DNA of 64,000 bases. Source: Tolypothrix carrinoi HA7290-LM1. GTDB lineage: Bacteria > Cyanobacteriota > Cyanobacteriia > Cyanobacteriales > Nostocaceae. The notes under the pieces are model-generated. The model was not told where the DNA came from and ran no database searches. It worked only from the letters and a program-made list of their open reading frames with translations. Positions 9,990 through 48,834 of the stretch are shown piece by piece (position 1 is the stretch's first letter; every line of letters starts with the position of its first letter). The stretch is from assembly GCA_019358935.1 (NCBI GenBank), contig JAHHIK010000003.1:64001-128000 (forward strand). The letters are read 5' to 3'. The translations under genes were made by a program, and so were the position numbers.

Positions 9990-10003
9990 GTAACTCTTGT
10001 TAC
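9990..10003. promoter_or_regulatory. Putative NtcA-binding site
   Basis: GTAACTCTTGTTAC fits GTA-N8-TAC with extra palindromic symmetry and T-rich flank, in the invB divergent intergenic region. Confidence 0.5.
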
Positions 10004-10077
10004 TGACGTACAAGTAAATATAATATACCCATTTGCAGGAGCCAACGGGTACGGATCGGCAAGAATTTGTAAAATCT

Positions 10078-10105
10078 TCCGGATGAATCTTAAAGTTAGT
10101 GTAAA
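10078..10105 (+). promoter_or_regulatory. Putative DIF1-type (heterocyst differentiation) promoter
   Basis: TCCGGA (10078-10083), then 17 nt, then GTAAA (10101-10105), upstream of the 10395 ORF. Confidence 0.4.
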
Positions 10106-10394
10106 CTACAATTTTAATCAGGTTGCGTCCAGAAGCTAATGCACTACCAACTGAAGGAGCGTAGAAGCTCTGCTTCTTGTCAAAAGACATCGCCCAACTT
10201 TGGCGGTTGGCATGAGTAAATTTGCTTACGCACGTTTTTGTAAAAGCGATCGCTCCGACATAGCAATCTTTATATTGGCTCAGAAGTAATCTAACTTAAT
10301 TAATATGTAGTAATTATACTTGATATTATACAGGGCGTAATTATATGAATAATCTACAGAAAGTTAATTAATCAAGTTTAGCCAGGAAAAATTT

Positions 10395-11480
10395 ATGTTA
10401 AAAACCTCTCAACCTGTGAAAACTCCCACGGTTGACCGTTTGCTCAATCTTTGGGCACAGCGCTACACAGTTGATTTATCGTCTCTATCTTTAGAAAACG
10501 GAGCATCCGCTGATTCGTTGCTTAAAGCCTCATCACCAGAGGGTCGAGCCGCAACCGCCACCAAGTTAAAGGATAATGTATTAGATATCAACTGCAACAT
10601 GGCATGGATACAAACAAAAACCCTTTACTCTTATATTCCTAACATTTTAGATTTGAACGAGGCAAGGCGCATAACTCAATTTGCCTTTAGGGTGTATAGA
10701 AAACTACTAGAAATTTATAAAAAACAGTCAATAAATACTGCCTCTGTGTCGGCTGAAAGTAAAGATAATTCCCTTAGTATATGGGGTATACCAGCAGTCG
10801 AAGAACTAGCATACGCTTTAGAACCAATATTAATGGTGTTTCAAGAACAACACATTGCATCTAAGGATTGGCGTGCCCTTGGTTTTTTGACAACGCAGTT
10901 GAATTTTAGCAATAGTTTAATTCTGAAAAAACTTACACCATCTGAAAAAATATTGCTTGCTTCTTACTTAAACTTTGTCGAAGAGCAAGTTGCGATGCCG
11001 TGGCAGCGAGTCTGCAATCAAAGTGCTAAATATAAATTCAATTCGCCTGAATTTATTATTGTAGAGCAAATGTTACCAGTTGCTAGGGATATTGCTCAAA
11101 GTGTTTATAATCAACTTGTAGAATTATTGCCCAATCATCGTAGCCGTCGAGGAACATTAAGTGATTCTGGTGTAACACACTCTTGCCTTCGTGACTTAAA
11201 TATGTTTCAGGCTTATTTATGGCTGTGTTTTTTAGAGAAGAGTATGGCATCATTTGAAGAAGAATTGCTGCCTTTATGTGAGATGGTTGTGGAGGGAGTG
11301 GAAATTAAATGGGAAATGACAGAAAAATGGTGTCAAGTATTAGGGGATGAAATTATTAGGCGTGTGAATCCAGAACAAAAAGCTTTGTTGCTGCCTTATA
11401 CTGAGCGAATGCAGGAGATATTTTTGCAAAAGCGATCGCGTTTGGGTTTTCGAGAGGAATCTGTTGGTAGTGGTGTTTGA
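10395..11480 (+). CDS. Conserved hypothetical alpha-helical protein
   Basis: 361-aa ORF with AGGA RBS. No recognisable catalytic motif. Contains a C-terminal SCLRDLNMFQAYL segment. Confidence 0.7.
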   Translation: MLKTSQPVKTPTVDRLLNLWAQRYTVDLSSLSLENGASADSLLKASSPEGRAATATKLKDNVLDINCNMAWIQTKTLYSYIPNILDLNEARRITQFAFRVYRKLLEIYKKQSINTASVSAESKDNSLSIWGIPAVEELAYALEPILMVFQEQHIASKDWRALGFLTTQLNFSNSLILKKLTPSEKILLASYLNFVEEQVAMPWQRVCNQSAKYKFNSPEFIIVEQMLPVARDIAQSVYNQLVELLPNHRSRRGTLSDSGVTHSCLRDLNMFQAYLWLCFLEKSMASFEEELLPLCEMVVEGVEIKWEMTEKWCQVLGDEIIRRVNPEQKALLLPYTERMQEIFLQKRSRLGFREESVGSGV

Positions 11481-11486
11481 TTAAAT

Positions 11487-11513
11487 CTCACGCAAAGGCG
11501 CAGAGGCGCAAAG
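11487..11513 (+). repeat. Solo copy of the CTCACGCAAAGG(CGCAAAGG)n repeat
   Basis: ctcacgcaaaggcgcagaggcgcaaag, near-identical to 16879-16905 and to the reverse complement of 17366-17392. Confidence 0.85.
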
Positions 11514-11532
11514 GAAGAGGAAAAATAGTGAA

Positions 11533-11561
11533 AGCCCCACGGTGAGTTCACTGAGGGGCTA
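11533..11561. terminator. Hairpin between convergent genes, probable terminator
   Basis: agcccc-acggtgagttcactga-ggggct stem with A/T flanks. Confidence 0.5.
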
Positions 11562-11587
11562 TTTACGATAATTGAAGATTTTGTATG

Positions 11588-11962
11588 TTATTTGAAGCTA
11601 CGCGCACCTTTGCCGCGATTGCAGTTGAAACACAGCGTTTGCAAGTTGCTAATGTGGTTAGTGCCTCCTTGAGAAAACGGTTTTTTATGATCGACCTCTA
11701 GGGTGACTTCTGGGGGAGTTTTACCACAAGAAACACATTTATGATTGTCTCTTTGGAGAACTGTAAAACGAACTGATAGGGGAATGTAACGCGATCGCTT
11801 ATTTGCTTGTTGCTTTGGCTGAGATTGAGATTTGGTAACAGGATATTTTTTCGCTTTTGCCTTCTTTACTTTCTCAGGCTTTGGCTCATTTACCAAAATT
11901 GCAAAATCCCGAATCATCCCTCGCACAAGTTTTTGCAGTGGATTTGGTAGCTTTTTCGGCAT
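11588..11962 (-). CDS. HNH endonuclease
   Basis: RFTVLQRD..KCVSCG...LEVDHKKP...GGTN..SNLQTLC..CN..KG. Confidence 0.9.
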   Translation of the reverse strand: MPKKLPNPLQKLVRGMIRDFAILVNEPKPEKVKKAKAKKYPVTKSQSQPKQQANKRSRYIPLSVRFTVLQRDNHKCVSCGKTPPEVTLEVDHKKPFSQGGTNHISNLQTLCFNCNRGKGARSFK

Positions 11963-11969
11963 TTACAGT

Positions 11970-12194
11970 TCAGTCAAAAAAGACTTTCTTAACTCCGAAA
12001 GCTGCGAGTCCAGCTGCTGCTACAACTCCTGCTGCTGGTAGTGCAACAACCGTTGTTGTTGTAAATCCTAAAACACCTAAAATTCCAGGAGCGGTAGAAG
12101 TAACTGTGGCTACTGTAATTGAGCCTAGACTAGCAGCTGCTGATGAAGCAGTTACAATAGCACCTACAGTCTTACTATCATCAGAATTTATCAT
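11970..12194 (-). CDS. Small Gly/Ala/Thr-rich hydrophobic protein
   Basis: 74 aa, ends AAGVVAAAGLAAFGVKKVFFD. 7-bp gap to the HNH gene. Confidence 0.65.
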   Translation of the reverse strand: MINSDDSKTVGAIVTASSAAASLGSITVATVTSTAPGILGVLGFTTTTVVALPAAGVVAAAGLAAFGVKKVFFD

Positions 12195-12220
12195 TTATTT
12201 GCCTTTTAGTATTTTTCAGA

Positions 12221-12430
12221 TTAGTTAAAAAGTTTCTTCAATCCATAAGCTGCTAGTCCAACTACCGCACCAGCAGCTACAACCGGAGCAGCACCAATGG
12301 CTACAGCAGTTCCTCCTACTGCTAAACCCATACCCCCAACTGTTGCAGCAACGCCTGCACCTGCTGCTGCTCCACCTGCTGCAAATGCCGCAGCTTCTTT
12401 AGCATCATCTTCTTTACGTTTTTTAGCCAT
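12221..12430 (-). CDS. Small glycine-zipper-like protein
   Basis: 69 aa with a basic N-terminus and G/A-xxx-G/A repeats, ends AAGAVVGLAAYGLKKLFN. AAGGTGG RBS upstream. Confidence 0.7.
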   Translation of the reverse strand: MAKKRKEDDAKEAAAFAAGGAAAGAGVAATVGGMGLAVGGTAVAIGAAPVVAAGAVVGLAAYGLKKLFN

Positions 12431-12689
12431 TATTTTTCCACCTTAATTTACGTGACTTCTAAAAAAGTAACATAAGGTTTTTTCTAACTACATTTGTGGT
12501 TTTACTTAAATGTTGAATTAACTTTTTGCCAAGCAGAAAAAAGCCAATATCCTTAAATACACCAGCTTATTTATAAAGAATTTAAACTATCATCACAATT
12601 CTTCAGTTGTGAAACCGATCGCTTCACACAACTGACACATTCTCCTCTTCTCTCTCTGCGCTCTCTGCGACTCTGCGGTTCGTTTCCTC

Positions 12690-12829
12690 CAAAACCCACA
12701 AAGCCAATGCTTCAACCCTGGCAACCGCTTCTTCTTTTGTCTGCCCATAAGCTAGTACACCAGGAAAATTAATCACCTCAGCTTATTGCGTCCATCCTCT
12801 TCTTGTTCAATTTCTATTGTGAAGTTCAT
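12690..12829 (-). pseudogene. hicB: Frameshifted HicB-family antitoxin
   Basis: MNFTIEIEQEEDGR, frameshift near 12783, then AEVINFPGVLAYGQTKEEAVARVEALAL. The 3' end runs into an aaccgcagagtcgcagagagcgcagag repeat. Confidence 0.75.
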
Positions 12830-13013
12830 AACCTCTGAAGGTATTGTAATATATGTAATTTTAGAGCAGCTGAGAAAGAAGTGCGATCGCTTTCTTACAT
12901 TTGTAGAGATTTGAAAAATGAACCGCCAAGATTGATTGTAGGCTCAATTTCATTTGGTTCAACTTAATCTACCATGACTTATTAAGTAAGTTTGGTAAAT
13001 TTTGCTCTTTGTT

Positions 13014-13646
13014 TTATTTTGAATTCCAATCTACTTCTCCAGGTTGCCTTGGTACATTATTCCAGTGTTGCCTTCCTTCTGCTGCTGTATGACAACCTGA
13101 ACCAAATTTGTCATGATTTAAGCCTAAAAAAACACATTTATCTTTATAACAACCAATTGCACCTGCAATGTGTTTCTCGTATAAGAGGTTATACCTGTGA
13201 CCTCTGCTATCCATCCAATTATCTACAGCATATGTCATTGGTTTCAACTTAATCCTAGTAAATATATTCTCTGAATATTTTTCATAGCCAAGAAGATTTT
13301 CAGCTAAATATTCTTCTTTGTTGAATCCATACTGATATTTCATCTTGTCTGAACAATTTCCCGTATGGGGATTTGTGTGGTTATAGTACTTGTATTGACT
13401 CATATCCTTGGCTCTAGCAACGGCTAGTTCAAACGCCTTTATATCAAAACTAATTGGTTTCTTTTTATATTGATTTATTAGCTCATTTACATAATGAATT
13501 GCGGCTTGAGAATCTTCTAGCGAATTTTTATAGTTATACAAAGTTTGATGTGGATTAAGTGCTGATGTCAAAGCTAACAATACTAAAAGAACATACCTCC
13601 ACCAGGTATTATTTTTGATAAATTTTATTCTTTTTCTACGTGCCAT
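13014..13646 (-). CDS. CAP (SCP) domain protein with N-terminal membrane anchor or signal
   Basis: RAKDM...YYNHTNP, AENL, WMDSRGHRYNLL. Confidence 0.8.
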   Translation of the reverse strand: MARRKRIKFIKNNTWWRYVLLVLLALTSALNPHQTLYNYKNSLEDSQAAIHYVNELINQYKKKPISFDIKAFELAVARAKDMSQYKYYNHTNPHTGNCSDKMKYQYGFNKEEYLAENLLGYEKYSENIFTRIKLKPMTYAVDNWMDSRGHRYNLLYEKHIAGAIGCYKDKCVFLGLNHDKFGSGCHTAAEGRQHWNNVPRQPGEVDWNSK

Positions 13647-13737
13647 AAGCTTTTACTTAAGAAATTGTATATCTTATAGGTCACTCTATTGAGTATCTTT
13701 AATAAGAGTGCTTTTAATTTAAAACAAAAACTTTTCA

Positions 13738-14937
13738 ATGACTTCAGTAGATTTTCCCAAACACAAAAAAGCCAAGGCTCTCAAAGCCTCTAGCCGACGC
13801 CCTGCTAAAGAACTTTGTAGCGAGTGCGGACTGTGCGATACATATTACATTCACTATGTCAAGGAAGCCTGCGCTTTTATAAATCAGCAAATAGGCGAAC
13901 TTGAAGAAGAAACACACGATCGCTCTCGCAATCTCGACAACCCCGATGAACTATACTTTGGTGTTCATCAACACATGATAGCGGCACGCAAACAGCAGCC
14001 CATCGCCGGCGCACAATGGACGGGTATTGTTAGCAGCATTGCCATTGAAATGCTGAATCGCGGCATAGTTGAAGGCGTTGTTTGCGTACAAAACACCAAA
14101 GAAGACCGCTTTCAACCGATGCCAATCATCGCCCGTACCGCAGAAGAAATACTAGCAGCGCGAGTAAATAAACCAACACTATCACCTAACCTTTCCGTCT
14201 TGGAACAGATAGAAAAATCGGGGATGAAGCGACTATTAGTAATTGGGGTTGGTTGCCAAATTCAAGCATTACGAGCCGTAGAAAAACAACTTGGGTTAGA
14301 AAAGCTGTATGTTTTAGGTACGCCATGTGTAGATAACGTTAACCGTGCCGGACTGCAAAAATTCTTAGAAACCACCAGCCGATCGCCTGATACTGTAGTA
14401 CACTACGAATTCATGCAAGACTTCCGAGTTCACTTCAAACATGAGGATGGCTCAACAGAAACCGTGCCTTTCTTTGGCTTAAAAACCAACAAACTCAAAG
14501 ATGTTTTTGCCCCTTCTTGCATGAGTTGCTTTGATTACGTCAATTCTCTGGCAGATTTGGTAGTCGGTTATATGGGCGCACCCTTCGGCTGGCAGTGGAT
14601 TGTAGTCAGAAATAATACAGGTAAAGAAATGCTGGATTTAGTGAAAGACCAGCTAGAAACCCAGCCGGTGATGTCGCAGGGAAACCGGAAAGAAGCCGTA
14701 CAACAAAGCATTCCCGCTTACGATAAAGGCGTTACCCTGCCCATGTGGGCGGCAAAACTGATGGGAGTCGTGATTGAAAAAATCGGTCCCAAAGGATTGG
14801 AATATGCGCGTTTTTCGATTGATTCTCATTTTACTCGTAATTATTTATACGTGAAGCGGAATCATCCAGAGAAGTTAGATGCACATGTTCCGGAGTTTGC
14901 CAAGCGTATTGTCGGGCAGTATAAATTGCCAGAATAA
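13738..14937 (+). CDS. bciB: 3,8-divinyl chlorophyllide 8-vinyl reductase (FrhB-like)
   Basis: PAKELCSECGLCD, GAQWTGIV, GVGCQ, GTPCVDN, SCMSCFDY.N.LADLVVGYMG. Confidence 0.9.
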   Translation: MTSVDFPKHKKAKALKASSRRPAKELCSECGLCDTYYIHYVKEACAFINQQIGELEEETHDRSRNLDNPDELYFGVHQHMIAARKQQPIAGAQWTGIVSSIAIEMLNRGIVEGVVCVQNTKEDRFQPMPIIARTAEEILAARVNKPTLSPNLSVLEQIEKSGMKRLLVIGVGCQIQALRAVEKQLGLEKLYVLGTPCVDNVNRAGLQKFLETTSRSPDTVVHYEFMQDFRVHFKHEDGSTETVPFFGLKTNKLKDVFAPSCMSCFDYVNSLADLVVGYMGAPFGWQWIVVRNNTGKEMLDLVKDQLETQPVMSQGNRKEAVQQSIPAYDKGVTLPMWAAKLMGVVIEKIGPKGLEYARFSIDSHFTRNYLYVKRNHPEKLDAHVPEFAKRIVGQYKLPE

Positions 14938-15230
14938 TACTTGTTTGCTGCGAGTAAATTAGAGACGCTTTTCAGTTATTTGTTGGGACACGATAATATC
15001 GTGTTCCTATTTTTTATCTGAAGAAATGAGAATTTTTATCAATATAAAATTTAGTTAGCATTACAGATATTTTCAGCTAAATAGATTATGCACTCAGAGC
15101 ATAGCAATGCTATGCGCCTACTAGAACAGATGTAATTAAAATTGCAGGGAAACTGCTGTATTTTAAAGAAATAATCAAACTAATACTTAAAAATAAATAA
15201 AAGTTTAAATTAAATTTTATAATATTGCTT

Positions 15231-15272
15231 CTTAAAACATAGTTAACACCGAGATTAACTGAGCTTAACTTT
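15231..15272 (+). promoter_or_regulatory. Putative Pho box (SphR-type TTAA repeats)
   Basis: cTTAAaac, gTTAAcac, aTTAActg and cTTAActt at 10-12 bp spacing upstream of phoX. The AT-rich context weakens the call. Confidence 0.45.
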
Positions 15273-15495
15273 AAAAGTATATTCTTTGGTTGCATTAACT
15301 TAGTTGAGTAGTTGTGGTAACAAAAAATTTTTAGGCAAAAAATTGAGAAATATTATGTGTTTTAACCATGCTCAAGAGTCAGCTTCGGCGTGAAAAAGCC
15401 AGAAATATTTCTCTTGTATAAATTTATAACACAGCCTAAATATTGCACAACATCTACTAATTTTTACAGACAAATAAAAGAATTATCAGTAAACT

Positions 15496-16857
15496 ATGGC
15501 TTTCTCACGAAGACAATTTTTTACTATTGCAGGTGCAACTGCTGCAACTCTTGTTGTTGGAGATACTTTAAAAGCTGTTTATGCTAAAGCCGCTCAAGGA
15601 AAATCGCTCACAGGTTCAGGCTATGGTTCGCTCAACCCAGATCCTGATGGCTTGTTAGACTTACCAGACGGATTTAAATACCGAGCATTTTCGCGGACAG
15701 GCGATATCATGGCTGATGGTAATCCCGTGCCTGGTGGTCATGATGGGATGGCTACTTTCGCTGGACCAAATCGCTCGGTTATCTTAGTTCGCAACCACGA
15801 ACTTAGCCCAAATTCCTTAACGCAAGTCATTGGACAAAAGTATGACGAGCTTTGTAAAGGTGGCACAAGTACATTAATCGTTAGCCCAAAGCGTGAACTG
15901 ATTAGAGATTACGCTTCACTAGCGGGAACTTACCGTAACTGTGCTGGTGGTCTAACTCCTTGGGGGTCATGGATTAGTTGTGAAGAAAACACCTCCACTC
16001 CAGAGACAACACCAGAGACGATAGAACAGCCAGCAAATTCTGGTATCTTCGTACCCAATCCGAACAGAGTTTCTAAGCGCCACGGTTATAACTTTGAAGT
16101 TCCAGCGCTTCGCAAACCTAAAAAGGGTACTGTTGACCCTGTACCATTAATAGAAATGGGTCGGTTCAACCACGAAGCCGTTGCCATCGACCCCAGAACA
16201 GGAATTGTCTATGAGACAGAAGACTCCGGAGATAGCCTGTTCTATCGCTTCATCCCCAATAAACCAGGCAAGTTAGAGGCAGGTGGTATCCTTGAGGCTC
16301 TCAAAATTAAGGATATGCCTCAAGTCATAACCAAGACTAATTTCCCTGTAAATGAACCAAAAGAAGTAGAGTGGGTTCGCATTGAAGATTACGATCCCCA
16401 AAAAGACACAGTGCGTAAAGAAGGCTTTGAGAAAGGAGCCGCACAATTTGCTCGCGGTGAAGGAATATGGTATGGCAACGGAGAGTTTTACTTTTGTTGT
16501 ACAAGTGGGGGTGCTAACAGTGGGGGTCAGGTTTGGCGTTACATTCCTGGCAGAAATGCCAGAGAGGGTGGCACTATTGAACTATTTGTCGAGCCAAACG
16601 ATAAAACCATACTAGATATGCCTGATAACATAGTCGTGGCTCCCTTTGGCGACCTCTTTCTTTGTGAAGATGGCAGCGACGAGCAGTTCGTTGTCGGGGT
16701 TACTCCTGGTGGGGAACTGTACCAGTTTGCTCGTAACGCTCTTAACGATAACGAGTTCGCTGGTGCTTGCTTCTCTCCAGATGGTCAGACGTTGTTCGTG
16801 AATATTCAAACCCCCGGAATCACTTTTGCTATTTGGGGACCTTGGAATAAGGCTTAG
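15496..16857 (+). CDS. phoX: PhoX-family alkaline phosphatase (DUF839), Tat-exported
   Basis: Tat signal SRRQFF. LVRNHE, NCAGGLTPWGSWISCEE, GRFNHEA, PDNI, EFAGACFSPDG.TLFVNIQ.PG. Confidence 0.88.
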   Translation: MAFSRRQFFTIAGATAATLVVGDTLKAVYAKAAQGKSLTGSGYGSLNPDPDGLLDLPDGFKYRAFSRTGDIMADGNPVPGGHDGMATFAGPNRSVILVRNHELSPNSLTQVIGQKYDELCKGGTSTLIVSPKRELIRDYASLAGTYRNCAGGLTPWGSWISCEENTSTPETTPETIEQPANSGIFVPNPNRVSKRHGYNFEVPALRKPKKGTVDPVPLIEMGRFNHEAVAIDPRTGIVYETEDSGDSLFYRFIPNKPGKLEAGGILEALKIKDMPQVITKTNFPVNEPKEVEWVRIEDYDPQKDTVRKEGFEKGAAQFARGEGIWYGNGEFYFCCTSGGANSGGQVWRYIPGRNAREGGTIELFVEPNDKTILDMPDNIVVAPFGDLFLCEDGSDEQFVVGVTPGGELYQFARNALNDNEFAGACFSPDGQTLFVNIQTPGITFAIWGPWNKA

Positions 16858-16878
16858 TATTTAGCAGGTAAAAAATAC

Positions 16879-17392
16879 CTCACGCAAAGGCGCAAAGACG
16901 CAAAGGAAGAAACTCTTTGCGACGGCAGTCGCTACAACGGGGGGAAAATACGCAACGCGCTGCCTCGACTTTGCGTGAGATTCTTATAAACCATTCACAA
17001 CCCGCGGGATACCGTCTTTGATAAGGAAAGCTCCGAAGTTGATGAGTAAACCAAGCCGCTTATTTGCAACGCGAAGGTAGGTTAGCAGTTGCTTCTTATG
17101 TACCGGATGAACTGCTTCCACAGATTTGAGTTCGACAATTACCTTATTTTCAACAATCAAGTCAGCCCGGAAGCCTACCTCCAGATGTACACCTTCATAA
17201 ACGACGGGTATGGGTTGGTCAGCTTCTATCCGCAATCCTCTATTACGTAACTCGTATTCCAAAACCGCCTGATATACCGATTCCAGCAACCCAGGTCCCA
17301 GAGTCGTGTGAATCTTGTACGCAGCATCAACAATTTCTTTCGCAACCTCATTTTCATTCATCTTTCTTTGCGCCTTTGCGCCTTTGCGTGAG
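16879..17392. mobile_element. GxxExxY gene module bounded by 27-bp inverted repeats
   Basis: 16879-16905 matches the reverse complement of 17366-17392 at 26/27 positions. A further partial copy lies at 16968-16980, interrupted by a different small repeat (16921-16966). Confidence 0.6.
16984..17361 (-). CDS. GxxExxY protein (PD-(D/E)XK-like fold)
   Basis: LGPGLLESVY, RADLIVE..VIVELKSV, QLLTYL, GLLINFG. Start placed at ATG 17361. Confidence 0.92.
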   Translation of the reverse strand: MNENEVAKEIVDAAYKIHTTLGPGLLESVYQAVLEYELRNRGLRIEADQPIPVVYEGVHLEVGFRADLIVENKVIVELKSVEAVHPVHKKQLLTYLRVANKRLGLLINFGAFLIKDGIPRVVNGL

Positions 17393-18628
17393 CTTTTCTT
17401 CAGCTTCTCCCACCGCATCGATCGCCGCTTCTAACGCGATCGCCACATGCGTCCAATGAGTTCCACCTTGGCAATAAACTACATACGGCTCCCGCAAAGG
17501 ACCATCGGCGGAAAACTCCGAAGTACTACCCTCAATAAACGTTCCCCCAGCCATCACTACCTGGCTTGAGTACCCAGGCATTTCATCGGGAACGGGGTCG
17601 AGGTAGGAACCGATGGGAGAATGCTGTTGTATCGCTTTACAAAAGGCAATCAGCTTTTTCGCGGAACCGAGTTTAATTGATTGAATCACATCGCGGCGGG
17701 GCGCAAAAGGTGCGGGATTCACCGGATAACCGAGTTTATCAAACACATAACCCGTGAGATGAGTGCCTTTCATCGCCTCTCCTACCATTTGTGGAGCGAG
17801 AAATAAGCCTTGGAAGAGAATGCGATTTTGGTCGAATGTCGCACCACCATAACTACCAATTCCCGGTGCGGTAAGGCGACATGCGGCTGCTTCTACTAAG
17901 TCGGCGCGACCGGCGACGTATCCGCCAGCGTTGACAATTGTCCCACCAGGATTTTTAATTAATGACCCCGCCATCAAATCAGCACCTACGGCGGTGGGTT
18001 CTTTGGTTTCGATAAATTCGCCGTAGCAGTTATCGACAAAACAAATAGTGTTGGGATTTTGCTGTTTGACTATGTGGATAATTTTTTCAATCTCAGCAAT
18101 TGATAAACTTGGACGCCACGAATAGCCACAAGAACGTTGAATTAATACTAAACGAGTATTATCTTTTACACCTTGACTTAACACTTGCCAATCGATTGTT
18201 CCTTCAGAGGTTAGATTTAATTGTCGGTAAGTTATGCCAAAATCAAGAAGTGAACCTTGATTTTCACCCCGTAAACCAATGACTTCTTCGAGAGTATCGT
18301 AGGGTGCCCCCACTACAGAAAGCATTTCATCCCCCGGACGGAGGACACCATATAAAGCACAAGCGATCGCATGGGTTCCGGATACAAACTGCACCCGCAC
18401 CACCGCCGCTTCAGCACCCATTACATCGGCAAAAACTTTATCTAAAGTTTCTCGTCCTAAATCATCATGACCATAACCACTTACACCAGCAAAATGGTGT
18501 GCCCCTACACGGCGATCGCGAAATGCATCCAGCACTCGTTTCAGATTATGCTTGACCTGAGCGTCAATTCCAGAAAAAATCTGTAATAGTGCCTGTTCTG
18601 CTTCTTGCAGCACCTCAAAGCTGTTCAT
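17354..18628 (-). CDS. Methionine gamma-lyase / aluminium-resistance family PLP enzyme
   Basis: GYGHDDLGRE, VSGTHAI, QRSCGYSWR, FVDNCYGEF, GSLIKNPGG, MAGGTFIEGSTSE.SADGP. Confidence 0.9.
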   Translation of the reverse strand: MNSFEVLQEAEQALLQIFSGIDAQVKHNLKRVLDAFRDRRVGAHHFAGVSGYGHDDLGRETLDKVFADVMGAEAAVVRVQFVSGTHAIACALYGVLRPGDEMLSVVGAPYDTLEEVIGLRGENQGSLLDFGITYRQLNLTSEGTIDWQVLSQGVKDNTRLVLIQRSCGYSWRPSLSIAEIEKIIHIVKQQNPNTICFVDNCYGEFIETKEPTAVGADLMAGSLIKNPGGTIVNAGGYVAGRADLVEAAACRLTAPGIGSYGGATFDQNRILFQGLFLAPQMVGEAMKGTHLTGYVFDKLGYPVNPAPFAPRRDVIQSIKLGSAKKLIAFCKAIQQHSPIGSYLDPVPDEMPGYSSQVVMAGGTFIEGSTSEFSADGPLREPYVVYCQGGTHWTHVAIALEAAIDAVGEAEEKLTQRRKGAKKDE

Positions 18629-18717
18629 CTGTTCCTCTTAAAAAAAAATACACATGCGGATCGATCGGATCTCGCGGTTCCTAACGTTCATTCATTTCCT
18701 ACTCAGGTGATTACTGC

Positions 18718-19533
18718 ATGACAATTGCTGCCTCAACTAAACCTCAAATCAACTGGGTAAACACCCTCTTTTTCCTTGCTCTGCACATCGGAGCTTTATT
18801 TGCACTGCTTCCTAGTAACTTTAGCTGGAAAGCTGTTGGCGTCGCTTTATTTCTTTACTGGGTGACTGGTGGCTTAGGTATTACTCTAGGATTTCACCGT
18901 CTTGTGACTCACCGCAGTTTTCAAACTCCCAAATGGCTAGAATATCTTCTCGTATTTTGCGGGACACTCGCCTGTCAAGGTGGACCCATCGAGTGGATCG
19001 GTACACACAGGATACACCATTTGCACTCTGACCAAAAAGCCGATCCGCATGATTCCAACGAAGGCTTTTGGTGGAGTCACATGGGTTGGCTAATTTATCA
19101 CTCCCCTGCTCATGCGGAAGCTCATCGCTTTACTAAAGACCTCAACGACGACCCAGTTTATCAGTTTTTACAAAAATATTTTATTGTCATCCAATTTGCT
19201 TTGGGTGGACTGCTTTTGTGGCTTGGTGGTTGGTCGTTTGTCGTTTGGGGAGTTTTTGCTCGCATTGTCTGGGTTTACCACTGCACTTGGTTGGTAAACA
19301 GCGCTACGCACAAATTTGGCTATCGCACTCACGATAGTGGCGATCGCTCAACTAATTGCTGGTGGGTAGCTGTTTTAGTATTTGGCGAAGGTTGGCACAA
19401 TAACCACCACGCTTATCAATACTCGGCTCGTCACGGGCTGGAATGGTGGGAAATCGATTTAACATGGATGACAATTCAACTGCTGCAAGCACTCGGTCTG
19501 GCTACGAATGTAAAGCTGGCACCAGGAAAGTAG
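18718..19533 (+). CDS. desC: Delta-9 acyl-lipid desaturase
   Basis: His boxes HRLVTH, HRIHH and HNNHH; GEGWHNNHH motif. Confidence 0.93.
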   Translation: MTIAASTKPQINWVNTLFFLALHIGALFALLPSNFSWKAVGVALFLYWVTGGLGITLGFHRLVTHRSFQTPKWLEYLLVFCGTLACQGGPIEWIGTHRIHHLHSDQKADPHDSNEGFWWSHMGWLIYHSPAHAEAHRFTKDLNDDPVYQFLQKYFIVIQFALGGLLLWLGGWSFVVWGVFARIVWVYHCTWLVNSATHKFGYRTHDSGDRSTNCWWVAVLVFGEGWHNNHHAYQYSARHGLEWWEIDLTWMTIQLLQALGLATNVKLAPGK

Positions 19534-19539
19534 CAAGTA

Positions 19540-19606
19540 CGTCAAGAGTCAAAAGTCAATAGTCAATAAACTCTTGACTTTTGACACTTGACTAATGACT
19601 AATAAT
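19540..19606. repeat. STRR-type heptamer repeats in inverted arrangement
   Basis: (agtcaaN)n followed by (ttgacNN)n and tgactaa units between desC and desA. Confidence 0.7.
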
Positions 19607-19800
19607 AAAAGACTTTCACCAATATTGATTCGTAAATCCCGAAAAAGCGGACAAAAGCGATTTACTGGTGCGCTATGCTCAGTTAGGTTGCTATAATCCA
19701 AAGCGCTAAGGTAATGTTACGAAATGCAATCAGTCTGTAGAGAGGCGAAAACTCGCGTCTTTAGTTCGGTAGTGTGAGGTTTGTTGTCTATCAGGTATTC

Positions 19801-20853
19801 ATGACTACATCAACAATCAGCGGCAAACAAGAAGCTTGTGACTTAGGTAATTCCGACCTGAGGCTTAAAGATATTATCAAAACCCTGCCACGAGAATGTT
19901 TTGTGCAGGATCGCCGCAAAGCTTGGACAACAGCAATAATCAGTGTCTTGATGGTTGGCTTGGGCTACTTAAGCCTGATATTCTCTCCTTGGTTTCTCTT
20001 ACCCGTAGCGTGGATTTTCACAGGAACCGCGTTGACGGGTTTTTTTGTGATCGGGCATGATTGTGGTCATCGTTCATTTGCCAAACGTCGTTGGGTAAAT
20101 GATGTGGTAGGGCATTTATTTATGATGCCGTTGATTTACCCGTTCCACAGTTGGCGGATTAAGCATAATTATCATCACACTCATACCAATAAGCTAGACG
20201 AAGACAACGCTTGGCATCCCATCAGACCAGAAGTATTTGAAGGTTGGGATAAAACCCGACAGTCTGCTTTTGAGGTATTCATCACTAAACGCCTGTGGTG
20301 GGTAGGTTCAGTTGGACATTGGGCGGTTGTACACTTTGATTGGCGAAAGTTCCAAACTAAAGAGCAATCAAGTGTTAAACTTTCTGTGGCTGTAGTGTTG
20401 CTTTTTGCTGCGATCGCTTTCCCAACTCTCATCGCTACAACTGGTATTTGGGGTTTTGTCAAATTTTGGCTGATACCCTGGCTGGTCTACCATTTCTGGA
20501 TGAGTACCTTTACTATTGTTCACCATACCGCTTCAGATGTTCCTTTCGTGGAAGCTTCTAAGTGGAATGCTGGAATAGCACAGCTATTTGGCTCAATTCA
20601 CTGCGATTACCCACGCTGGGTAGAATTCCTTTGCCACGATATTAATGTTCACGTCCCCCATCACATTTCTACTGCTATTCCCTCTTATAATTTGCGGATG
20701 GCGTATCGCAGTATCCAAGAAAATTGGGGCACGTATCTACATGATGAATGTCGGTTTTCTTGGTCTTTAATGAAGCAAATTACAGACCAATGTCAACTGT
20801 ATAGAACCGATAGTGGCTATCAGTCTTTTAACGACTATTACGCAGGACGATAA
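19801..20853 (+). CDS. desA: Delta-12 acyl-lipid desaturase
   Basis: GHDCGH, HNYHH, HVPHH boxes. Position between desC and desB. Confidence 0.93.
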   Translation: MTTSTISGKQEACDLGNSDLRLKDIIKTLPRECFVQDRRKAWTTAIISVLMVGLGYLSLIFSPWFLLPVAWIFTGTALTGFFVIGHDCGHRSFAKRRWVNDVVGHLFMMPLIYPFHSWRIKHNYHHTHTNKLDEDNAWHPIRPEVFEGWDKTRQSAFEVFITKRLWWVGSVGHWAVVHFDWRKFQTKEQSSVKLSVAVVLLFAAIAFPTLIATTGIWGFVKFWLIPWLVYHFWMSTFTIVHHTASDVPFVEASKWNAGIAQLFGSIHCDYPRWVEFLCHDINVHVPHHISTAIPSYNLRMAYRSIQENWGTYLHDECRFSWSLMKQITDQCQLYRTDSGYQSFNDYYAGR

Positions 20854-21089
20854 AAAAGCTTGAAGTGTCAAGTATAAAGTGTGAAATAAGTTTAGATTTT
20901 CATGCTTTATCCTTCATGCTTTCAAATAGATTCTGGCAATCATTCATACACGCAAAGTGTTAGAGACATTGCCAGATAGATTCATCCTGCAAACAAACAA
21001 AAACTGAAACATACCTCAAACAATGCGTTCCGGAGGTTAAATTTCATGCGTTCAAAAAATGTCCGATTCATTGACTACAACAAAATCAA

Positions 21090-22151
21090 GTGCAATTAGA
21101 TACAGTTAAATTAGATAATCCTCAGAACTCGAATGAGGATACAACCAACCTGCCCTTCACCCTTGGTGATTTGAAAGCTGCAATACCCGCTGAATGTTTT
21201 CAGCCTAATGTGGGCAAATCACTTTATTATTTTTTTCAAGACATCTTGATTATTGGTCTGCTTTATGCAGTCGCTCATTACCTGGACTCTTGGTATTTCT
21301 TTCCGATTTTCTGGGTAATGCAAGGAACGATGTTTTGGGCTTTATTTGTAGTTGGACATGACTGCGGACACCAATCTTTTTCTAAAAAGAAATGGTTGAA
21401 TGATTTGATTGGTCATCTTTCGCACACACCGATACTCGTTCCTTATCATGGTTGGCGAATTAGCCATAGAACTCACCACTTAAATACTGCCAGTCTGGAA
21501 AATGATGAAAGCTGGTATCCTGTGAGTGAGTCAGAGTACAAAGCGATGCCTTGGGATGAAAAAATAGGTCGATATTATGTGTTTTTATTGGCTTATCCGG
21601 TGTATTTATTTATGCGGAGTCCTAATAAAGAGGGTTCCCACTTTCACCCCAACAGCCCGCTTTTTAAACCTTCAGAAAAATGGGATGTCATCACCAGCAG
21701 TATCTGGTTAATTTGCATGGTGAGTTTACTAGCTTTAGGAACTTACCAATGGGGTTGGATGTGGTTGTTGAAATACTATGCTGTACCCTATCTTGTGTTT
21801 ATCATGTGGCTCGACTTGGTGACATTTTTGCACCACACCGAAGCAGATATTCCCTGGTATCGTGGCGAAAATTGGACTTTTTTGAAAGGTGCTATTTCTA
21901 CCATTGACCGCGATTATGGTTTTATTAACCATATCCATCATGATATCGGTACTCATGTAGCTCACCACATTTTCTTGAATATGCCTCACTACAATTTGAA
22001 AAAGGCTACTGAGGCTATTAAACCAATTTTGGGTGACTACTATCGCAAATCTGAAGAGCCAATTTGGAAATCAGTTTGGCGTTCATCTCTTAGTTGTCAT
22101 TTTGTCCCGGATACTGGAGATAAGGTTTACTATACTTCTAACAATAAGTAA
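21090..22151 (+). CDS. desB: Omega-3 (delta-15) acyl-lipid desaturase
   Basis: GTMFWALFVVGHDCGH, GWRISHRTHH, HDIGTHVAHH. Confidence 0.93.
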   Translation: MQLDTVKLDNPQNSNEDTTNLPFTLGDLKAAIPAECFQPNVGKSLYYFFQDILIIGLLYAVAHYLDSWYFFPIFWVMQGTMFWALFVVGHDCGHQSFSKKKWLNDLIGHLSHTPILVPYHGWRISHRTHHLNTASLENDESWYPVSESEYKAMPWDEKIGRYYVFLLAYPVYLFMRSPNKEGSHFHPNSPLFKPSEKWDVITSSIWLICMVSLLALGTYQWGWMWLLKYYAVPYLVFIMWLDLVTFLHHTEADIPWYRGENWTFLKGAISTIDRDYGFINHIHHDIGTHVAHHIFLNMPHYNLKKATEAIKPILGDYYRKSEEPIWKSVWRSSLSCHFVPDTGDKVYYTSNNK

Positions 22152-24337: not shown

Positions 24338-24393
24338 AACTAAATAATTCCGCAAAGATACGAAACCCAACCTACAATTATTCTTAACTCCTC

Positions 24394-24423
24394 GTACAGA
24401 CGTTCGGTGTGGAACGTCTCTAC
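24394..24423. repeat. REP-like palindrome GTAGAGACGTTC-N-GAACGTCTCTAC family
   Basis: Differs from 28501-28530 by one base. A degenerate copy lies near 32548-32571. Confidence 0.8.
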
Positions 24424-27895: not shown

Positions 27896-28500
27896 TCAAA
27901 GCGATTAGTTACAGCAAAACTTTAACAAAAGCATTGCTATCCATCCATCAACAAAACCTCAATTGGTTAATAGTCCAAATGTTTAGAGTGGTATTATTAA
28001 TTCAGATAAATTACGGAAAATATTTCCTTAACTTTTTCCATAACCAAGCGAATTACATTCCACTCTAAATGTTTGCTACCACGTCCCCAACGCAGGCTGC
28101 AAGTTGATACGATAGACGTACTAAGTCGCGCAAAATACAGCGTGCAACACTCGTTACAAAACGCGATCGCATCAGTACTTTATCGGCGTTGATTGTACAA
28201 AAGCTTTGTTGGACAAGGCTTTTAGCTTAAGAATGCCAACAAGTGCATTCCACATATTGTCTAGAAGCCTGACTCGTACTCAATCTATATAACGCTTGAT
28301 TCTCGACTTCACCTTCAGCCGGAATCAAAGCGCCTTCATCTCTCCATTACAAAGAGTTGTCATGTATTTAACTGTATTTGCCAATACAAAAGGATTAATC
28401 TAAATTGCTTTCATTTGGGTTAAGTTGAGTCACACACTGCGTTTGACTGTATCGCAGCCTGCAAATTCTTACTCAAATAACCTTAATTTCATTAACCCTT

Positions 28501-28635
28501 GTAGAGACGTTCGGTGTGGAACGTCTCTACAATATGTGTGATTTCCCAAACATGATGTAATAAACAAACGGAGTGGAAAACAATTATGCGTTGCCCGAAG
28601 TACGAGTGTAGGGACAATTCATGAATTGTCCCTAC
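28501..28635. repeat. Two GTAG-type REP-like palindromes
   Basis: gtagagacgttcggtgtggaacgtctctac (28501-28530) and gtagggacaattcatgaattgtccctac (28608-28635). Confidence 0.85.
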
Positions 28636-32375: not shown

Positions 32376-32483
32376 TATAGCGGTTCTGGTGTTGGATGCA
32401 ATACACAACGATACGCACTCTTGGACAATTCATCAATTGTCCCTACGATCCGAATATATTTGACGCAAGTGAGAACCGCTATA
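32376..32483. mobile_element. MITE-like element carrying a degenerate REP-like palindrome
   Basis: 12-bp perfect TIR tatagcggttct...agaaccgctata with internal ggacaattcatcaattgtccctac. Confidence 0.65.
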
Positions 32484-32771
32484 ATTAAACCTTCATATTC
32501 AGCGTAAACATTATCAAATTGAAATGCTAACATCTAAGCAACCGTCTTAGAGACGTTTTGTCGGAACGTCTTGACAATATGTGTGATTTGCAGGACATGA
32601 GATAATTTTAAAAATACCTGAAATCAGATATAGAACTTTGTATAATTAATGTCTTTATGACAAAAAGTCTTCTATAAATTACCAGAGTTTTTAGCTTTCA
32701 CTATCAGGCAAAAGATTTCTGGCATAAATCTCGATAATTATTATTTAAAACCACAGATGCACACAGATAAT

Positions 32772-37162: not shown

Positions 37163-37305
37163 GGGGAGACAAGGAGACAAGGGGACAGGGAGACAAGGGG
37201 ACAAGGGGGCAGGGGGCAGGGGGCAGGGGGCAGGGGGCAGGGGGCAGGGGGAGTTTGCCTCTTCGTCTCCCTTGTCTCCCTTGTCCCCCCCTCCCCTCTC
37301 CCCCT
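37163..37305. repeat. GC-rich heptamer/octamer tandem repeats forming an inverted pair
   Basis: ggagacaa/ggggacaa units and about six GGGGGCA-like units, followed by complementary cttgtctcc units. Confidence 0.85.
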
Positions 37306-38842: not shown

Positions 38843-38938
38843 TAGGACTTACGCACCCACTAAAGTCTTGTAGGGGCAATTCATGAATTGCCCCTACATA
38901 AATTCAATGGTGACGACGACATGAGTGCGTAAGTTTTA
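38843..38938. mobile_element. TA-flanked MITE-like element carrying a perfect 28-bp REP-like palindrome
   Basis: TIR taggacttacgcac...gtgcgtaagtttta with internal gtaggggcaattcatgaattgcccctac (38870-38897). Confidence 0.65.
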
Positions 38939-39515: not shown

Positions 39516-40433
39516 ATGTTCCCAGTTATCTATAGTAGCGAGTTTTTGGAACACAAAACTGGATATCTCCATCCAGAGAAGCCAGAAAGGTTAACAGCGA
39601 TCGCTTCCGCTATCAAAGCAGCTGCGTTTGCAGAACAAATTGAATGGCGATCGCCTACACCAGCATCTCAAGCGCTTGATTTGATGTCTGTTCTACAACA
39701 AGCACACACTCCGCGCTACATTCAAAAAGTCCAACAAATCGCTGAAGAAGGCGGTGGTTATTTGGATGGAGATACGCCAATTTCCCCGCGCAGCTATGAT
39801 GTAGCGTTATTGGCAGCGAGTGCTTGGGTGGATGGAATTAATGCTGTGCTAGCAAATCAAAATCCCGCTTTTGTGCTAGCGCGTCCACCGGGACACCACG
39901 CCGAAAGTGATGCGGGGATGGGGTTTTGCTTATTTTCTAATGCAGCGATCGCCGCTTTTTACGCTTTACAACAACCGGAAATTCAACGTGTCGCCATTCT
40001 GGATTGGGATGTGCATCATGGTAATGGTACACAGGCGATCGTTGAAACAAGCAAGCAGATTGCTTTCTGTTCGCTACATCAATACCCCTGCTATCCCGGT
40101 ACTGGCAGAGCCACAGAACGCGGTTTTCATGATAACGTCTTAAACTTACCCGTTCCTCCGGGTAGCGATTTGGCAGTATATCAGCCACTATTTGAAAAAA
40201 AGATAATTCCTTTTTTATCCAACTTTCAGCCAGATTTACTGATTGTCAGTGCTGGTTATGATGGTAACGCTGACGATCCTTTAGCAATGATTAATTTACA
40301 ACCAAAAGATTATGGTTTGTTTACCGATTATTGTTTAGGATTAACTCGAAAAATTCTTTTTGGCTTAGAAGGTGGCTATGATTTTAAAACACTATCTCAA
40401 TCAGTAGTCGCCACAATAGAACGTTGTTTATAA
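39516..40433 (+). CDS. Histone deacetylase family protein
   Basis: HPEKPERL, RPPGHHA, MGFCLFSN, DWDVHHGNGTQ, SAGYD...DPL, LEGGY. Confidence 0.93.
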   Translation: MFPVIYSSEFLEHKTGYLHPEKPERLTAIASAIKAAAFAEQIEWRSPTPASQALDLMSVLQQAHTPRYIQKVQQIAEEGGGYLDGDTPISPRSYDVALLAASAWVDGINAVLANQNPAFVLARPPGHHAESDAGMGFCLFSNAAIAAFYALQQPEIQRVAILDWDVHHGNGTQAIVETSKQIAFCSLHQYPCYPGTGRATERGFHDNVLNLPVPPGSDLAVYQPLFEKKIIPFLSNFQPDLLIVSAGYDGNADDPLAMINLQPKDYGLFTDYCLGLTRKILFGLEGGYDFKTLSQSVVATIERCL

Positions 40434-40470
40434 CCGTAGTAAGCGTTTCAACGCTTATTTTGGGCACTTA

Positions 40471-40673
40471 CAGCAATTTTCATGTATTTAGACCACACTC
40501 TTGTTTCTTTATTTCTTCCTTTGCGCCTTTGCGCGGCAGTCGCTACAACGGGGGGAACCCCAACGCCAGGTGCTTCAAGCCGGGAAACCCGTCCAACGCA
40601 CTGGCTCCGCAACGCGCTGCCTTGCCTTTGCGTGAGATAAAAACAATGTGGTTTATTTACCTGAAAATAGCTG
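40471..40673. mobile_element. MITE with TA target duplication and nested small repeats
   Basis: Imperfect 27-bp TIR cagcaattttcatgtatttagaccaca...tgtggtttatttacctgaaaatagctg, with TA at 40469-70 and 40674-75. Removing it restores gggcacttaagtgcccactac, which is intact near 40735-40756. Confidence 0.85.
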
Positions 40674-40768
40674 TAAGTGCCCACTACAATAGAACGTTTT
40701 TTATTACCGTAGTAAGCGTTTTAACGCTTATTAAGGGCACTTAAGTGCCCACTACAAATACTTTCGCG

Positions 40769-43737: not shown

Positions 43738-43952
43738 TGGGGACTGGGGACTGGGGACTAGGGACTGGGGAAAAGGGAAAAGGGAAAAGGGGAAAGGGTT
43801 TTTGAAGAGGGGGAAAGGAGAAAGGGAAAAGAATTATTACCAATGCCCCATGACGGCAGATGCTTCAAGCCGGGGAACCCGTCCAACGCACTGCCTCCCC
43901 AATGCCCCATGCCCAATGCCCCATTCCCAATGCCCCATTCCCAATTACCAAT
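43738..43952. repeat. STRR1-type and related heptamer arrays with an inserted small dispersed repeat
   Basis: (ggggact)n, (gggaaaa)n and (ccaatgc/cccattc)n. Insert acggcagatgcttcaagcc...caacgcactgcctcc at 43853-43898 is near-identical to 40563-40608. Confidence 0.85.
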
Positions 43953-44011
43953 GCTTTTATGTCACATAAAGATGTATAGTCTTGTAAGGTAGCGTCAGTA
44001 GCAAAAACTAA

Positions 44012-45587: not shown

Positions 45588-46393
45588 CTAGCGTAAACTC
45601 GCCTCTACAAATGCCACATAAGGACAACTCGAATAACGAGGTGTACAAGTTGCTTTTATGCCAACGCTGCGAGCATTCTCAACATTAATGTTTAAAACTT
45701 GCTTTGCCGCTATTGTCAAATCCTTTGTAGCTACTACTTTGTTGTCAACACTTACGTCAAATACTATCTTATCATCTTGACGAGCATAATCATGTTTGCC
45801 ATTTATTCCAACAACTAAATTCAATTGTCGAAACTTAGAATTAAGAGCGCATGACACTCCAGCAGGTTTATCCTTGGAAATATAAGGATAGGGATTACCA
45901 TTTTCACTAAACAAATAAGCGATTTCCGGCAAAGCTTCCCCTCCGATAGCAATGTTTTTTGGTTCACGCTGCTTTACTAAAGATTGTTCAACCCCAGGAG
46001 TAGAACTAAGACATTCCGTATCTAAAAGAGAAACGGCAGTCCCAGATAAGGGGGGAGTAGGAGTTTCGGCAACTGTGGGAGTGGGTGAAGCAGTAGGAGT
46101 TTCGGCAACCGTTGGTGTGGGTGAAGCAGTAGGAGTTTCGGCAACGGTGGGTGTGGGTGAAGCAGTAGGGGATGCGGCAACTGTGGGAGTGGGTGAGGCA
46201 GTATTGTTGTCACCGATTAGATTATTTTGTTTGAGAATTACCGCAGTAATTACCGATGCACTATTGCAGTAGCAATTATAATCCCGGTAATCAAGGAAAT
46301 AAAAACCATTGGATTTTTATTTTGTTTATTCTCATTTTCTCCTGATGATATTTGAGTAGGTTTTGGCGAATTCCTTGAATCTTTCGGACTCAT
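45588..46393 (-). pseudogene. Membrane-anchored Pro/Thr-repeat protein with a C-terminal NPCBM/NEW2-like domain, one frameshift
   Basis: AAGGAG RBS and ATG at 46393. The TM helix is broken by a 1-nt loss near 46260. The downstream frame stays open through the (ETPTASPTPTVA)n repeats to the stop at 45588. Confidence 0.7.
46057..46202. repeat. 36-bp coding tandem repeat, about 4 copies
   Basis: Unit gtaggagtttcggcaactgtgggagtgggtgaagca with variants. Confidence 0.9.
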
Positions 46394-48643: not shown

Positions 48644-48834
48644 AAATTTTAACTTACCTTGTATAACTAAAGATAGCAATTCTATCCCTAAAAAAAACTA
48701 TATCGTCAATGGATTTTATAACAATTTAAAATAGCTTCTGAAATTAGCTACCTCTCTTTCTCTCTTCCTCTGTGTTCTCTGTGCCTCTGCGGTTCGTTTA
48801 AAAAAATATCACAACTCATCTACTACTACTATAT

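What the first reader, a model, noticed from the sequence alone, without database searches (positions are those of the whole stretch)
16879..17392. GxxExxY nuclease-like gene bracketed by inverted repeats that also occur as solo elements: candidate RAYT/REP-like mobile system
Seen: the 125-aa gene lies between CTCACGCAAAGGCGCAAAG(A/G)CGCAAAG inverted repeats (26/27 match). One ends 4 nt before the ATG, and a third partial copy lies just after the stop. The upstream repeat supplies the last codons of the neighbouring lyase gene (LTQRRKGAK), consistent with insertion at its 3' end. Gene-less copies occur at 11487-11513 and 40518-40637 (interrupted). Similar 8-9-nt-period variants occur at 12652-12682, 32749-32768 and 48768-48795. 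Known: GxxExxY proteins are PD-(D/E)XK-like with no established function, and RAYT transposases propagate REPs in a comparable layout. Inference: GxxExxY is the autonomous mobiliser of this repeat family.
Basis: partly seen in the sequence, partly recalled or inferred. Interest (0 to 1): 0.8.

Follow-up and report, generated by a model that had tools for sequence, protein, structure and literature searches.

The report
Nuclease gene with its own repeats
A small nuclease-type gene of unknown function sits between mirror-image copies of a short repeat that is also scattered through the genome; each branch of this gene family has its own matching repeat across many bacterial groups, so the protein likely recognises, cuts and thereby maintains these repeats, a partnership not found in the papers searched.

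Summary
The 125-aa GxxExxY (PD-(D/E)XK) gene lies between head-out 27-nt arms made of a head plus three CGCAAAG units. The genome holds 177 three-unit arms against 0-2 in shuffles. Its three GxxExxY paralogs are each framed by their own arm type. Arms flank 73 of 76 homolog loci from many phyla (21 of 1850 control windows). Arm type follows protein clade, and residue 8 tracks one base of the unit. Arm numbers are higher where the cognate gene is intact, but type-D arms show no such dependence, and 13 of 196 gene-less cyanobacteria keep 8 or more arms. Shown here: at the lyase locus the cassette flips and swaps variant independently of the host tree. Best reading: an Ssn/RAYT-like site-specific nuclease whose cuts are repaired by host recombination (untested). 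The scan noted this pairing before on other DNA (79 notes); I found it in no paper searched.

The parts
16984..17361 (-). GxxExxY / PDDEXK_3 gene, 125 aa, clade A1 (Lys8); predicted catalytic E27, D67, E77-x-K79, Q91xxxY95
   Evidence: dN/dS 0.03-0.17 among 6 congeners
17366..17392 (-). Upstream arm L (head CTCA plus three CGCAAAG units), ending 4 nt before the ATG
16969..16979 (-). Head and first unit of the downstream left arm L'
16922..16967 (.). Separate 46-nt insert inside L' (ends uncertain by 1-2 nt); relatives of it also sit in other repeats; SDR5-like by recall only
   Evidence: 27 near-full copies in the genome, 6 in arms; G010 carries it in the upstream arm instead
16915..16921 (-). 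Last unit of L'
16879..16905 (+). Right arm R, inverted partner of L (26/27) and of L'
   Evidence: region 16875-16985 folds with z -6.1
17354..18628 (-). Neighbour: methionine-gamma-lyase-family gene; reads through arm L in this lineage
15496..16857 (+). Neighbour: phoX (the usual neighbour in Nostocales is an FrhB-family gene)
11487..11513 (+). Solo type-A arm, single; also present in congener G001
40518..40637 (-). Solo type-A arm split by two nested copies of the insert element
12652..12682 (-). Solo type-B arm (cognate of the C47 paralog)
48768..48795 (-). Solo type-B arm; present or decayed in 4 of 5 congeners
32749..32768 (+). Two-unit type-D arm (10-nt period); no cognate gene found in this genome

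Best explanation
The GxxExxY gene is framed by its own type of dispersed repeat, and its protein is likely a sequence-specific endonuclease that binds these three-unit arms and would cut DNA at or beside them, leaving host repair and recombination to copy, rewrite, pair up and flip the arms and to swap the gene cassette between lineages at the same site. Shown: layout, specificity, clade-to-repeat matching, an intact catalytic motif under purifying selection, flips, and allele swaps at one locus. Inferred: direct recognition of the unit by the N-terminal helix (residues 7-8), cutting (nicking or single-strand cleavage, by analogy with Ssn), and that cutting drives the spread and upkeep of the arms. 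The protein is predicted not to join DNA itself, so this would be a homing-like or conversion-like process rather than RAYT-type transposition.
For: Specificity: of 4 same-type head-out arm pairs 200-1200 nt apart in G000, 3 enclose the 3 paralogs, each with its own type; 0 of 7 Y1-transposase and 0 of 7 four-helix-bundle genes have an arm within 300 nt. Generality: arms at 73 of 76 loci on one side and 64 of 76 on both, controls 21 of 1850; in a second phylum sample 27 and 21 of 30, controls 13 of 353. Arm type follows protein clade across host phyla. Gly8 goes with G at unit base 5 in about 6 of 7 independent pairs, none opposite, and genome-wide (median G-type fraction 0.71, n=8, against 0.27, n=13). 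Type-A arms: median 74 in 18 confamilial genomes with an intact A gene, 7 in 13 without. Genus g37: all 5 with the gene exceed all 3 without, for type A and type E. D67, E77 and N108 in 165 of 165 proteins, K79 in 164, Q91 and Y95 in 162. On the tree of the adjacent lyase gene (51 loci) the cassette variant changes 15 times (shuffle mean 15.2) and orientation 8 times (8.5); hosts of variant A2 are rejected as a clade, p-AU 4.6e-5. Orthologous solo arms differ in all units at once between congeners. The spacer base between units matches between the two arms no better than between random arms (0.43 vs 0.43; 0.60 vs 0.49), as expected for motif reading rather than stem pairing.
Against: No activity was tested. 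Arms persist without the gene: 13 of 196 gene-less cyanobacterial genomes have 8 or more, up to 173, and no full-length gene was found in 5 of them on a looser search. Type-D arms are as many without as with the D gene in genus g37 (17-47 vs 23 and 53). Exceptions to the residue rule: G135 (Lys8) has 0.64 G-type arms, above its Gly8 congener G177 at 0.53; type E is reversed in genus g40. 41 of 79 gene-positive genomes in the second phylum have fewer than 8 arms of the one pattern used. The residue-8 column was chosen after seeing the data, so p about 0.03 is optimistic. Four-helix-bundle genes show the same gene-plus-own-repeat layout and are not known nucleases (recalled), so the layout alone does not need cutting. 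Flips and swaps could arise from host recombination between arms without the protein. No pre-insertion allele of a solo arm was found.
Confidence: 0.52

Rival explanations
1. Host-kept Ssn-like filter: the protein recognises and cuts arm-bearing single-stranded DNA to tune natural transformation or recombination; arms are its sites but spread by other means.
For: Same layout as NTS-ssnA-NTS (PMC11893778, Results and Discussion read). Purifying selection; chromosomal, 8 of 72,556 plasmids and 0 of 50,697 phages; arms persist after gene loss.
Against: Arm number and the arm variant follow the resident enzyme, which fits upkeep by the enzyme. The gene is often lost or broken. Single arms fold weakly (z -1.5, -1.8), unlike the NTS hairpin.
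Confidence: 0.2
2. True RAYT-like transposase: the protein itself excises and inserts arms or doublets, and its own cassette.
For: Layout; REPIN-like doublets at fixed spacing in G282; cassette in many unrelated operons in other phyla; an internally deleted gene with both arms kept (L251); decline after gene loss as described for REPINs (10.1101/2021.07.10.451892, passages).
Against: Only PF13366 matches: no HUH, catalytic-tyrosine or DDE domain. PD-(D/E)XK enzymes are hydrolytic (established knowledge). No target duplication seen. 65 of 81 type-A and 114 of 120 type-B arms in G000 are single.
Confidence: 0.13
3. RNA-level or binding-only role: arms pair in the transcript to loop out the gene, or act as terminators or protein-binding sites, with no DNA cutting.
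For: L and R could form a 26-27 bp stem around the gene; the downstream doublet folds at z -6.1 between convergent genes; many arms start close behind a stop codon (21 of 40 within 30 nt); fold hits include RNA endonucleases at low scores.
Against: Spacer bases are not matched between arms; no strand preference relative to transcription (27 vs 20 for A, 39 vs 36 for B); most arms are single; gene orientation between arms varies (55 head-out, 12 head-in of 90); no Rfam match in 10000-20000.
Confidence: 0.09
4. Passenger: the gene merely lands in repeat-rich permissive sites.
For: The same sites hold unrelated repeat families in other lineages.
Against: Paralog-specific arm types in one genome, clade matching across phyla, residue-base tracking, other small genes carry other repeats.
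Confidence: 0.04

Closest known systems
Ssn nucleases with NTS/SRM repeats (GIY-YIG, cd10448; PMC11893778)
   Same: Small single-domain nuclease gene flanked by repeats that are also dispersed through the genome; variant pairs of enzyme and repeat.
   Different: PD-(D/E)XK fold instead of GIY-YIG; repeat is a head plus three direct 7-nt units with a free spacer base, mostly single, not a hairpin; activity untested here.
REPIN-RAYT systems (HUH/Y1; 10.1101/2021.07.10.451892, PMC3733652)
   Same: One gene per repeat type, chromosomal, rare on plasmids, repeat numbers lower after gene loss (types A and E), doublets in some genomes.
   Different: No HUH/Y1 domain; no GTAG-tagged palindrome; cassette variant does not follow the host tree at the lyase locus, whereas RAYT phylogeny is described as congruent with the host.
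Homing endonucleases (free-standing; recalled)
   Same: Nuclease gene that stays at one site and is exchanged between lineages with short flanks.
   Different: Its presumed site flanks the gene and occurs tens to hundreds of times in the host's own genome; no intron or intein; cleavage of an empty allele not shown.
Cas4 / AdnA / lambda-exonuclease / MGME1-type PD-(D/E)XK domains
   Same: D...ExK core plus QxxxY motif (motif name recalled); best Foldseek rows (E 6e-3 to 8e-3) and VIA Z 7.8, rmsd 4.5, 101 aligned for SSO0001.
   Different: Minimal 125-aa domain, no Fe-S cysteines; fold matches are weak and show no function.
Nostocaceae SDR and STRR repeats (Elhai et al. 2008, PMC2527708)
   Same: Short dispersed repeats of Nostocales; the nested 46-nt insert resembles SDR5 by recall.
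   Different: Paper not held; seen only as cited in PMC5861425. Whether the arms are listed there could not be checked. The arms also occur outside cyanobacteria.

Membership tests
GxxExxY (TIGR04256) / PDDEXK_3 (PF13366) | Score above curated cut-off | tested here: met
   147 bits vs 35; 141 vs 22
PD-(D/E)XK nucleases | Catalytic D...E-x-K residues conserved | tested here: met
   D67 165/165, E77 165/165, K79 164/165
PD-(D/E)XK nucleases | Fold matches solved members | tested here: inconclusive
   Model pLDDT 95.4; no Foldseek match at E<=0.001; top VIA Z 8.3, rmsd 3.2, 99 aligned (3ijm), most rows are PD-(D/E)XK proteins
REPIN-RAYT | HUH/Y1 tyrosine transposase domain | tested here: not met
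   Only PF13366 hits; 0 of 7 Y1 genes lie near arms
REPIN-RAYT | Gene flanked by cognate repeats that are also dispersed | tested here: met
REPIN-RAYT | Repeats are inverted doublets of palindromic REPs | tested here: not met
   65 of 81 A arms single in G000, single arm z -1.5 and -1.8; doublets do occur in G282
REPIN-RAYT | Vertical inheritance, gene tree congruent with host | tested here: not met
   Variant and orientation distributed like shuffles on the lyase tree; one neighbour gene used as host proxy
REPIN-RAYT | Repeats decay after gene loss | tested here: inconclusive
   Yes for types A and E, no for type D
Ssn / SRM | GIY-YIG (cd10448) domain | tested here: not met
Ssn / SRM | Site-specific cleavage of single-stranded DNA at the repeat | not testable with these tools
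   needs purified protein
IS / MITE | Terminal inverted repeats | tested here: met
   55 of 90 clade-A loci head-out inverted; other orientations common
IS / MITE | Target-site duplication | tested here: inconclusive
   None seen at 5 in-frame sites or window sites, but no clean pre-insertion allele was available
Homing endonuclease | Cuts the gene-less allele of its own site | not testable with these tools
   allele swaps at one locus shown; cleavage not

The most novel reading that the evidence does not exclude
GxxExxY proteins are a third, fold-independent class of repeat-breeding enzymes beside RAYT and Ssn: minimal PD-(D/E)XK nucleases with a readable residue-to-base code that seed and rewrite their own triple-heptamer repeats throughout the chromosome and home into the resident copy of their cassette, with no transposase chemistry.
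Probability: 0.35. Interest if true: 0.87.

Novelty: new variant of a known kind. Interest (0 to 1): 0.72.

Why it matters
PDDEXK_3/GxxExxY is listed as function unknown (PMC3424549, table row) yet is very common: 7,653 clusters at 50% identity with E<=1e-10, 55 of 251 cyanobacterial and 79 of 141 genomes in a second phylum sample. The finding names a substrate for each clade, so the function becomes directly testable with short oligonucleotides. It would explain a family of dispersed repeats that alter spacers and even loops of essential proteins, and would offer a natural set of 125-aa nucleases with different specificities.

Tried and rejected
Lyase read-through as an insertion scar: rejected. 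G003 as a pre-insertion site: not accepted, it keeps L'-R. Search for clean empty-versus-filled pairs of solo arms in 5 congeners (output partly cut) and at 5 in-frame sites: arms were shared, decayed or replaced by other repeats, so insertion boundaries could not be read; loci for 6 more in-frame sites were fetched but not compared. Contigs of 4 sequencing runs: no excision or inversion joint at this locus; the arm-to-arm joints are most simply doublets from elsewhere; contigs drop rare variants and no usable RNA run was laid, so expression is untested. Rfam: no match in 10000-20000. ESM Atlas returned only PF13366 clusters. Foldseek gave nothing at E<=0.001. Type-B counts per genome were not run. 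Literature: 'GxxExxY' gave 3 papers, 2 listed, one occurrence each, not read; PDDEXK_3/PF13366/TIGR04256 gave 3, one passage read; repeat-plus-nuclease phrase searches gave nothing relevant; SDR/STRR searches did not return the Elhai 2008 paper, which is not held. Subscription journals and supplements were not covered.

Full report
Observation. The coordinates are right. The gene 16984-17361 (-) is a GxxExxY/PDDEXK_3 member between a methionine-gamma-lyase-family gene and phoX. Its layout is L-gene-L'-R: an upstream arm, and downstream a doublet whose left arm carries a separate 46-nt insert. An arm is an A/T-rich lead, a head (CTCA), three CGCAAAG units one base apart, and a purine-rich tail. 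The host is a cyanobacterium; the closest named homologs are from Nostocales.

The repeat in this genome. Three-unit arms number 177 against 0 and 2 in shuffles. By type there are 81 A, 120 B, 59 C (loose pattern) and 5 D. Most are single: 65 of 81 A and 114 of 120 B. The genome has three GxxExxY paralogs, framed by A, B and C arms respectively. Only 4 same-type head-out pairs lie 200-1200 nt apart and 3 of them enclose these genes; the fourth encloses no long reading frame. None of 7 Y1-transposase genes or 7 four-helix-bundle genes has an arm within 300 nt.

Other genomes. Of 80 homolog loci, 4 were dropped for lack of an anchor; 73 of 76 have a two-unit arm on one side and 64 on both, against 21 of 1850 control windows. 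They span Cyanobacteriota, Acidobacteriota, Planctomycetota, Bacteroidota, Verrucomicrobiota and others, and are not independent of each other. In a sample centred on a Bacteroidetes genome, 27 and 21 of 30 loci did so, against 13 of 353 controls. On a tree of 165 proteins (quick search, 122 columns, many forks open) arm type follows protein clade rather than host; more distant clades have CRCNGAT, CAGGATT or TATGATT units. Outside cyanobacteria the neighbours are varied housekeeping genes, sometimes the two halves of an operon (58 of 156 neighbour clusters annotated).

Gene and repeat number. In 251 cyanobacterial genomes, 49 of 55 with the gene have 8 or more generic arms, against 13 of 196 without (threshold chosen after seeing the data; 107 genomes are one family). 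Four of the six exceptions carry other arm types. In the second sample the figures are 38 of 79 and 4 of 62. For type A within the host's family, 18 genomes with an intact A gene have a median of 74 arms (minimum 33) and 13 without have 7 (maximum 41); two with broken A genes (56, 71) were set aside. In genus g37 all five gene-bearers exceed all three others for A (75-121 vs 21-41) and for E (164-625 vs 75-134). Against: type D shows no dependence, E is reversed in genus g40, type-C counts are low even with the gene (0-30), and five arm-rich genomes, one a single contig, gave no full-length gene.

Recognition. The column best matching unit base 5 is residue 8: Gly in 20 of 22 clade-A loci with G, and in 0 of 68 with A (printed there as position 9). 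On the tree about 6 of 7 independent pairs go the same way and none opposite (post hoc; only 2 pairs within clade A). Genome-wide, the G-type share of A arms has median 0.71 with a Gly8 enzyme (n=8) and 0.27 otherwise (n=13), with overlap. The spacer base is not matched between the two arms of a locus (35 pairs), single arms fold weakly and arms show no strand preference. I infer that the motif is read as DNA sequence. An earlier scan note (e1-1175331) reported a residue-base link on other DNA; I tested it here.

Protein. The model is confident (pLDDT 95.4). Fold matches are weak but led by Cas4, AdnA and other PD-(D/E)XK proteins. D67, E77, K79, Q91 and Y95 are nearly invariant in 165 sequences (E27 and Y30 are partly fixed by my anchor), and dN/dS among six congeners is 0.03-0.17. 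The gene is on 8 of 72,556 plasmids and 0 of 50,697 phages.

Dynamics at this locus. 47 clade-A loci, all cyanobacterial, neighbour the lyase, 9 of them flipped (two loci appear twice). Among relatives the site holds the cassette, a gene-less doublet (G003, G021, G036), other repeat families, or nothing. G001, G003 and G005 have a stop codon before the arm, so the read-through is secondary. On the tree of the lyase 3' half (51 loci, 50 different) the A1/A2 variant changes 15 times and orientation 8 times, as often as in shuffles (15.2 and 8.5), and A2 hosts are rejected as a clade, while the cyanobacterial A2 proteins group together on the protein tree. In some sister pairs the flanks agree up to the arm heads; in others 10-40 nt of flank differ too. 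So the cassette is repeatedly flipped and replaced in place. One neighbour gene is the only host proxy, and 13 of 47 forks are open.

Solo arms. Arms sit in frame in variable loops of large conserved proteins (names IleRS, CobN, chelatase H, PutA and SMC are from recall). At the IleRS-like site five congeners have a doublet, others a single or decayed arm, and two relatives an unrelated palindrome. At other sites all units differ together between congeners. I saw no target duplication. This looks like conversion and replacement rather than clean insertion; the direction of change could not be fixed.

Mechanism. I commit to a site-specific nuclease whose cuts are resolved by host recombination (0.52). 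Recognition of the arms is the best-supported inferred step; cutting, strand preference and causation of spread are untested. Rivals: an Ssn-like host filter (0.20), a true transposase (0.13), an RNA or binding-only role (0.09), passenger (0.04). A caution is that four-helix-bundle genes show the same layout with 7-9-nt tandem repeats.

Comparison and novelty. It works like Ssn/NTS (PMC11893778: abstract, introduction, first results, discussion and passages read) and like REPIN-RAYT (10.1101/2021.07.10.451892 and PMC3733652: passages), but fails the defining domain test for both. PMC3424549 lists the family as unknown (one table row). I found no paper on the pairing in searches; the library lacks most subscription journals and Elhai 2008. 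The scan holds 79 earlier notes on this pairing in at least 78 other genomes, none for this genome, and none matching my query on allele swaps and inversion; these are unchecked notes, not support. Verdict: real, a new variant of a known kind, interest 0.72.

Noticed in passing
G000 C54:2180-2506, C16:86169-86474, C26:23393-23713, C16:69200-69520, C61:23767-24087, C25:11186-11503, C74:28559-28909: All 7 four-helix-bundle genes (TIGR02436) have tandem 7-9-nt repeat arrays beside them, 6 of 7 on both sides, mostly a different unit per gene; similar arrays occur without a gene in the window (43885-43966, 51469-51536, 37164-37211). A parallel gene-plus-own-repeat system may underlie the STRR repeats.
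   Followed up: partly
window 16922-16967, 40534-40615, 43853-43905: A 45-50-nt element inserts into arms, tandem arrays and itself (27 near-full copies); other inserts of about 20-30 nt sit in arms of relatives (L171, L177, L250). SDR5-like and SDR-like by recall only.
   Followed up: partly
L256-L296, L327-L331 (in-frame loops): Permissive protein loops are occupied by different repeat families in different lineages: arms, CCCCTC-type palindromes or CCCCACT arrays at the same codon position.
   Followed up: partly
L251 (G057:C1:1782500-1784500): Clade-C gene with an internal deletion that keeps both arms, a MITE-like derivative.
   Followed up: partly
L059:2936-3322; P0001, P0002, P0008: Tandem GxxExxY genes separated by an arm doublet and two-domain GxxExxY proteins.
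   Followed up: no
window 28607-28635, 32418-32446, 38869-38897, 52370-52398; 24381-24423, 28488-28530: GTAG-tagged palindromes of two kinds, likely cyanobacterial REP families of the sort in PMC3733652; not compared.
   Followed up: no
window 11588-11962 (-): 124-aa HNH protein with a sub-threshold IscB match (E 3.2e-15, 56 bits vs cut-off 175), next to the solo arm at 11487 and a small palindrome; this stretch is not matched in 4 of 5 congeners.
   Followed up: no
window 40413-40743: The split arm at 40518 lies inside a 45-nt inverted pair (40461-40505, 40639-40683), itself between two 58-nt direct repeats; G003 and G006 lack the whole block.
   Followed up: partly
window 18718-22151: Three adjacent fatty-acid desaturase genes; ordinary.
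   Followed up: no
window 63014-63133 and 46056-46235: Tandem arrays of 24 nt and 36 nt, probably coding repeats.
   Followed up: no
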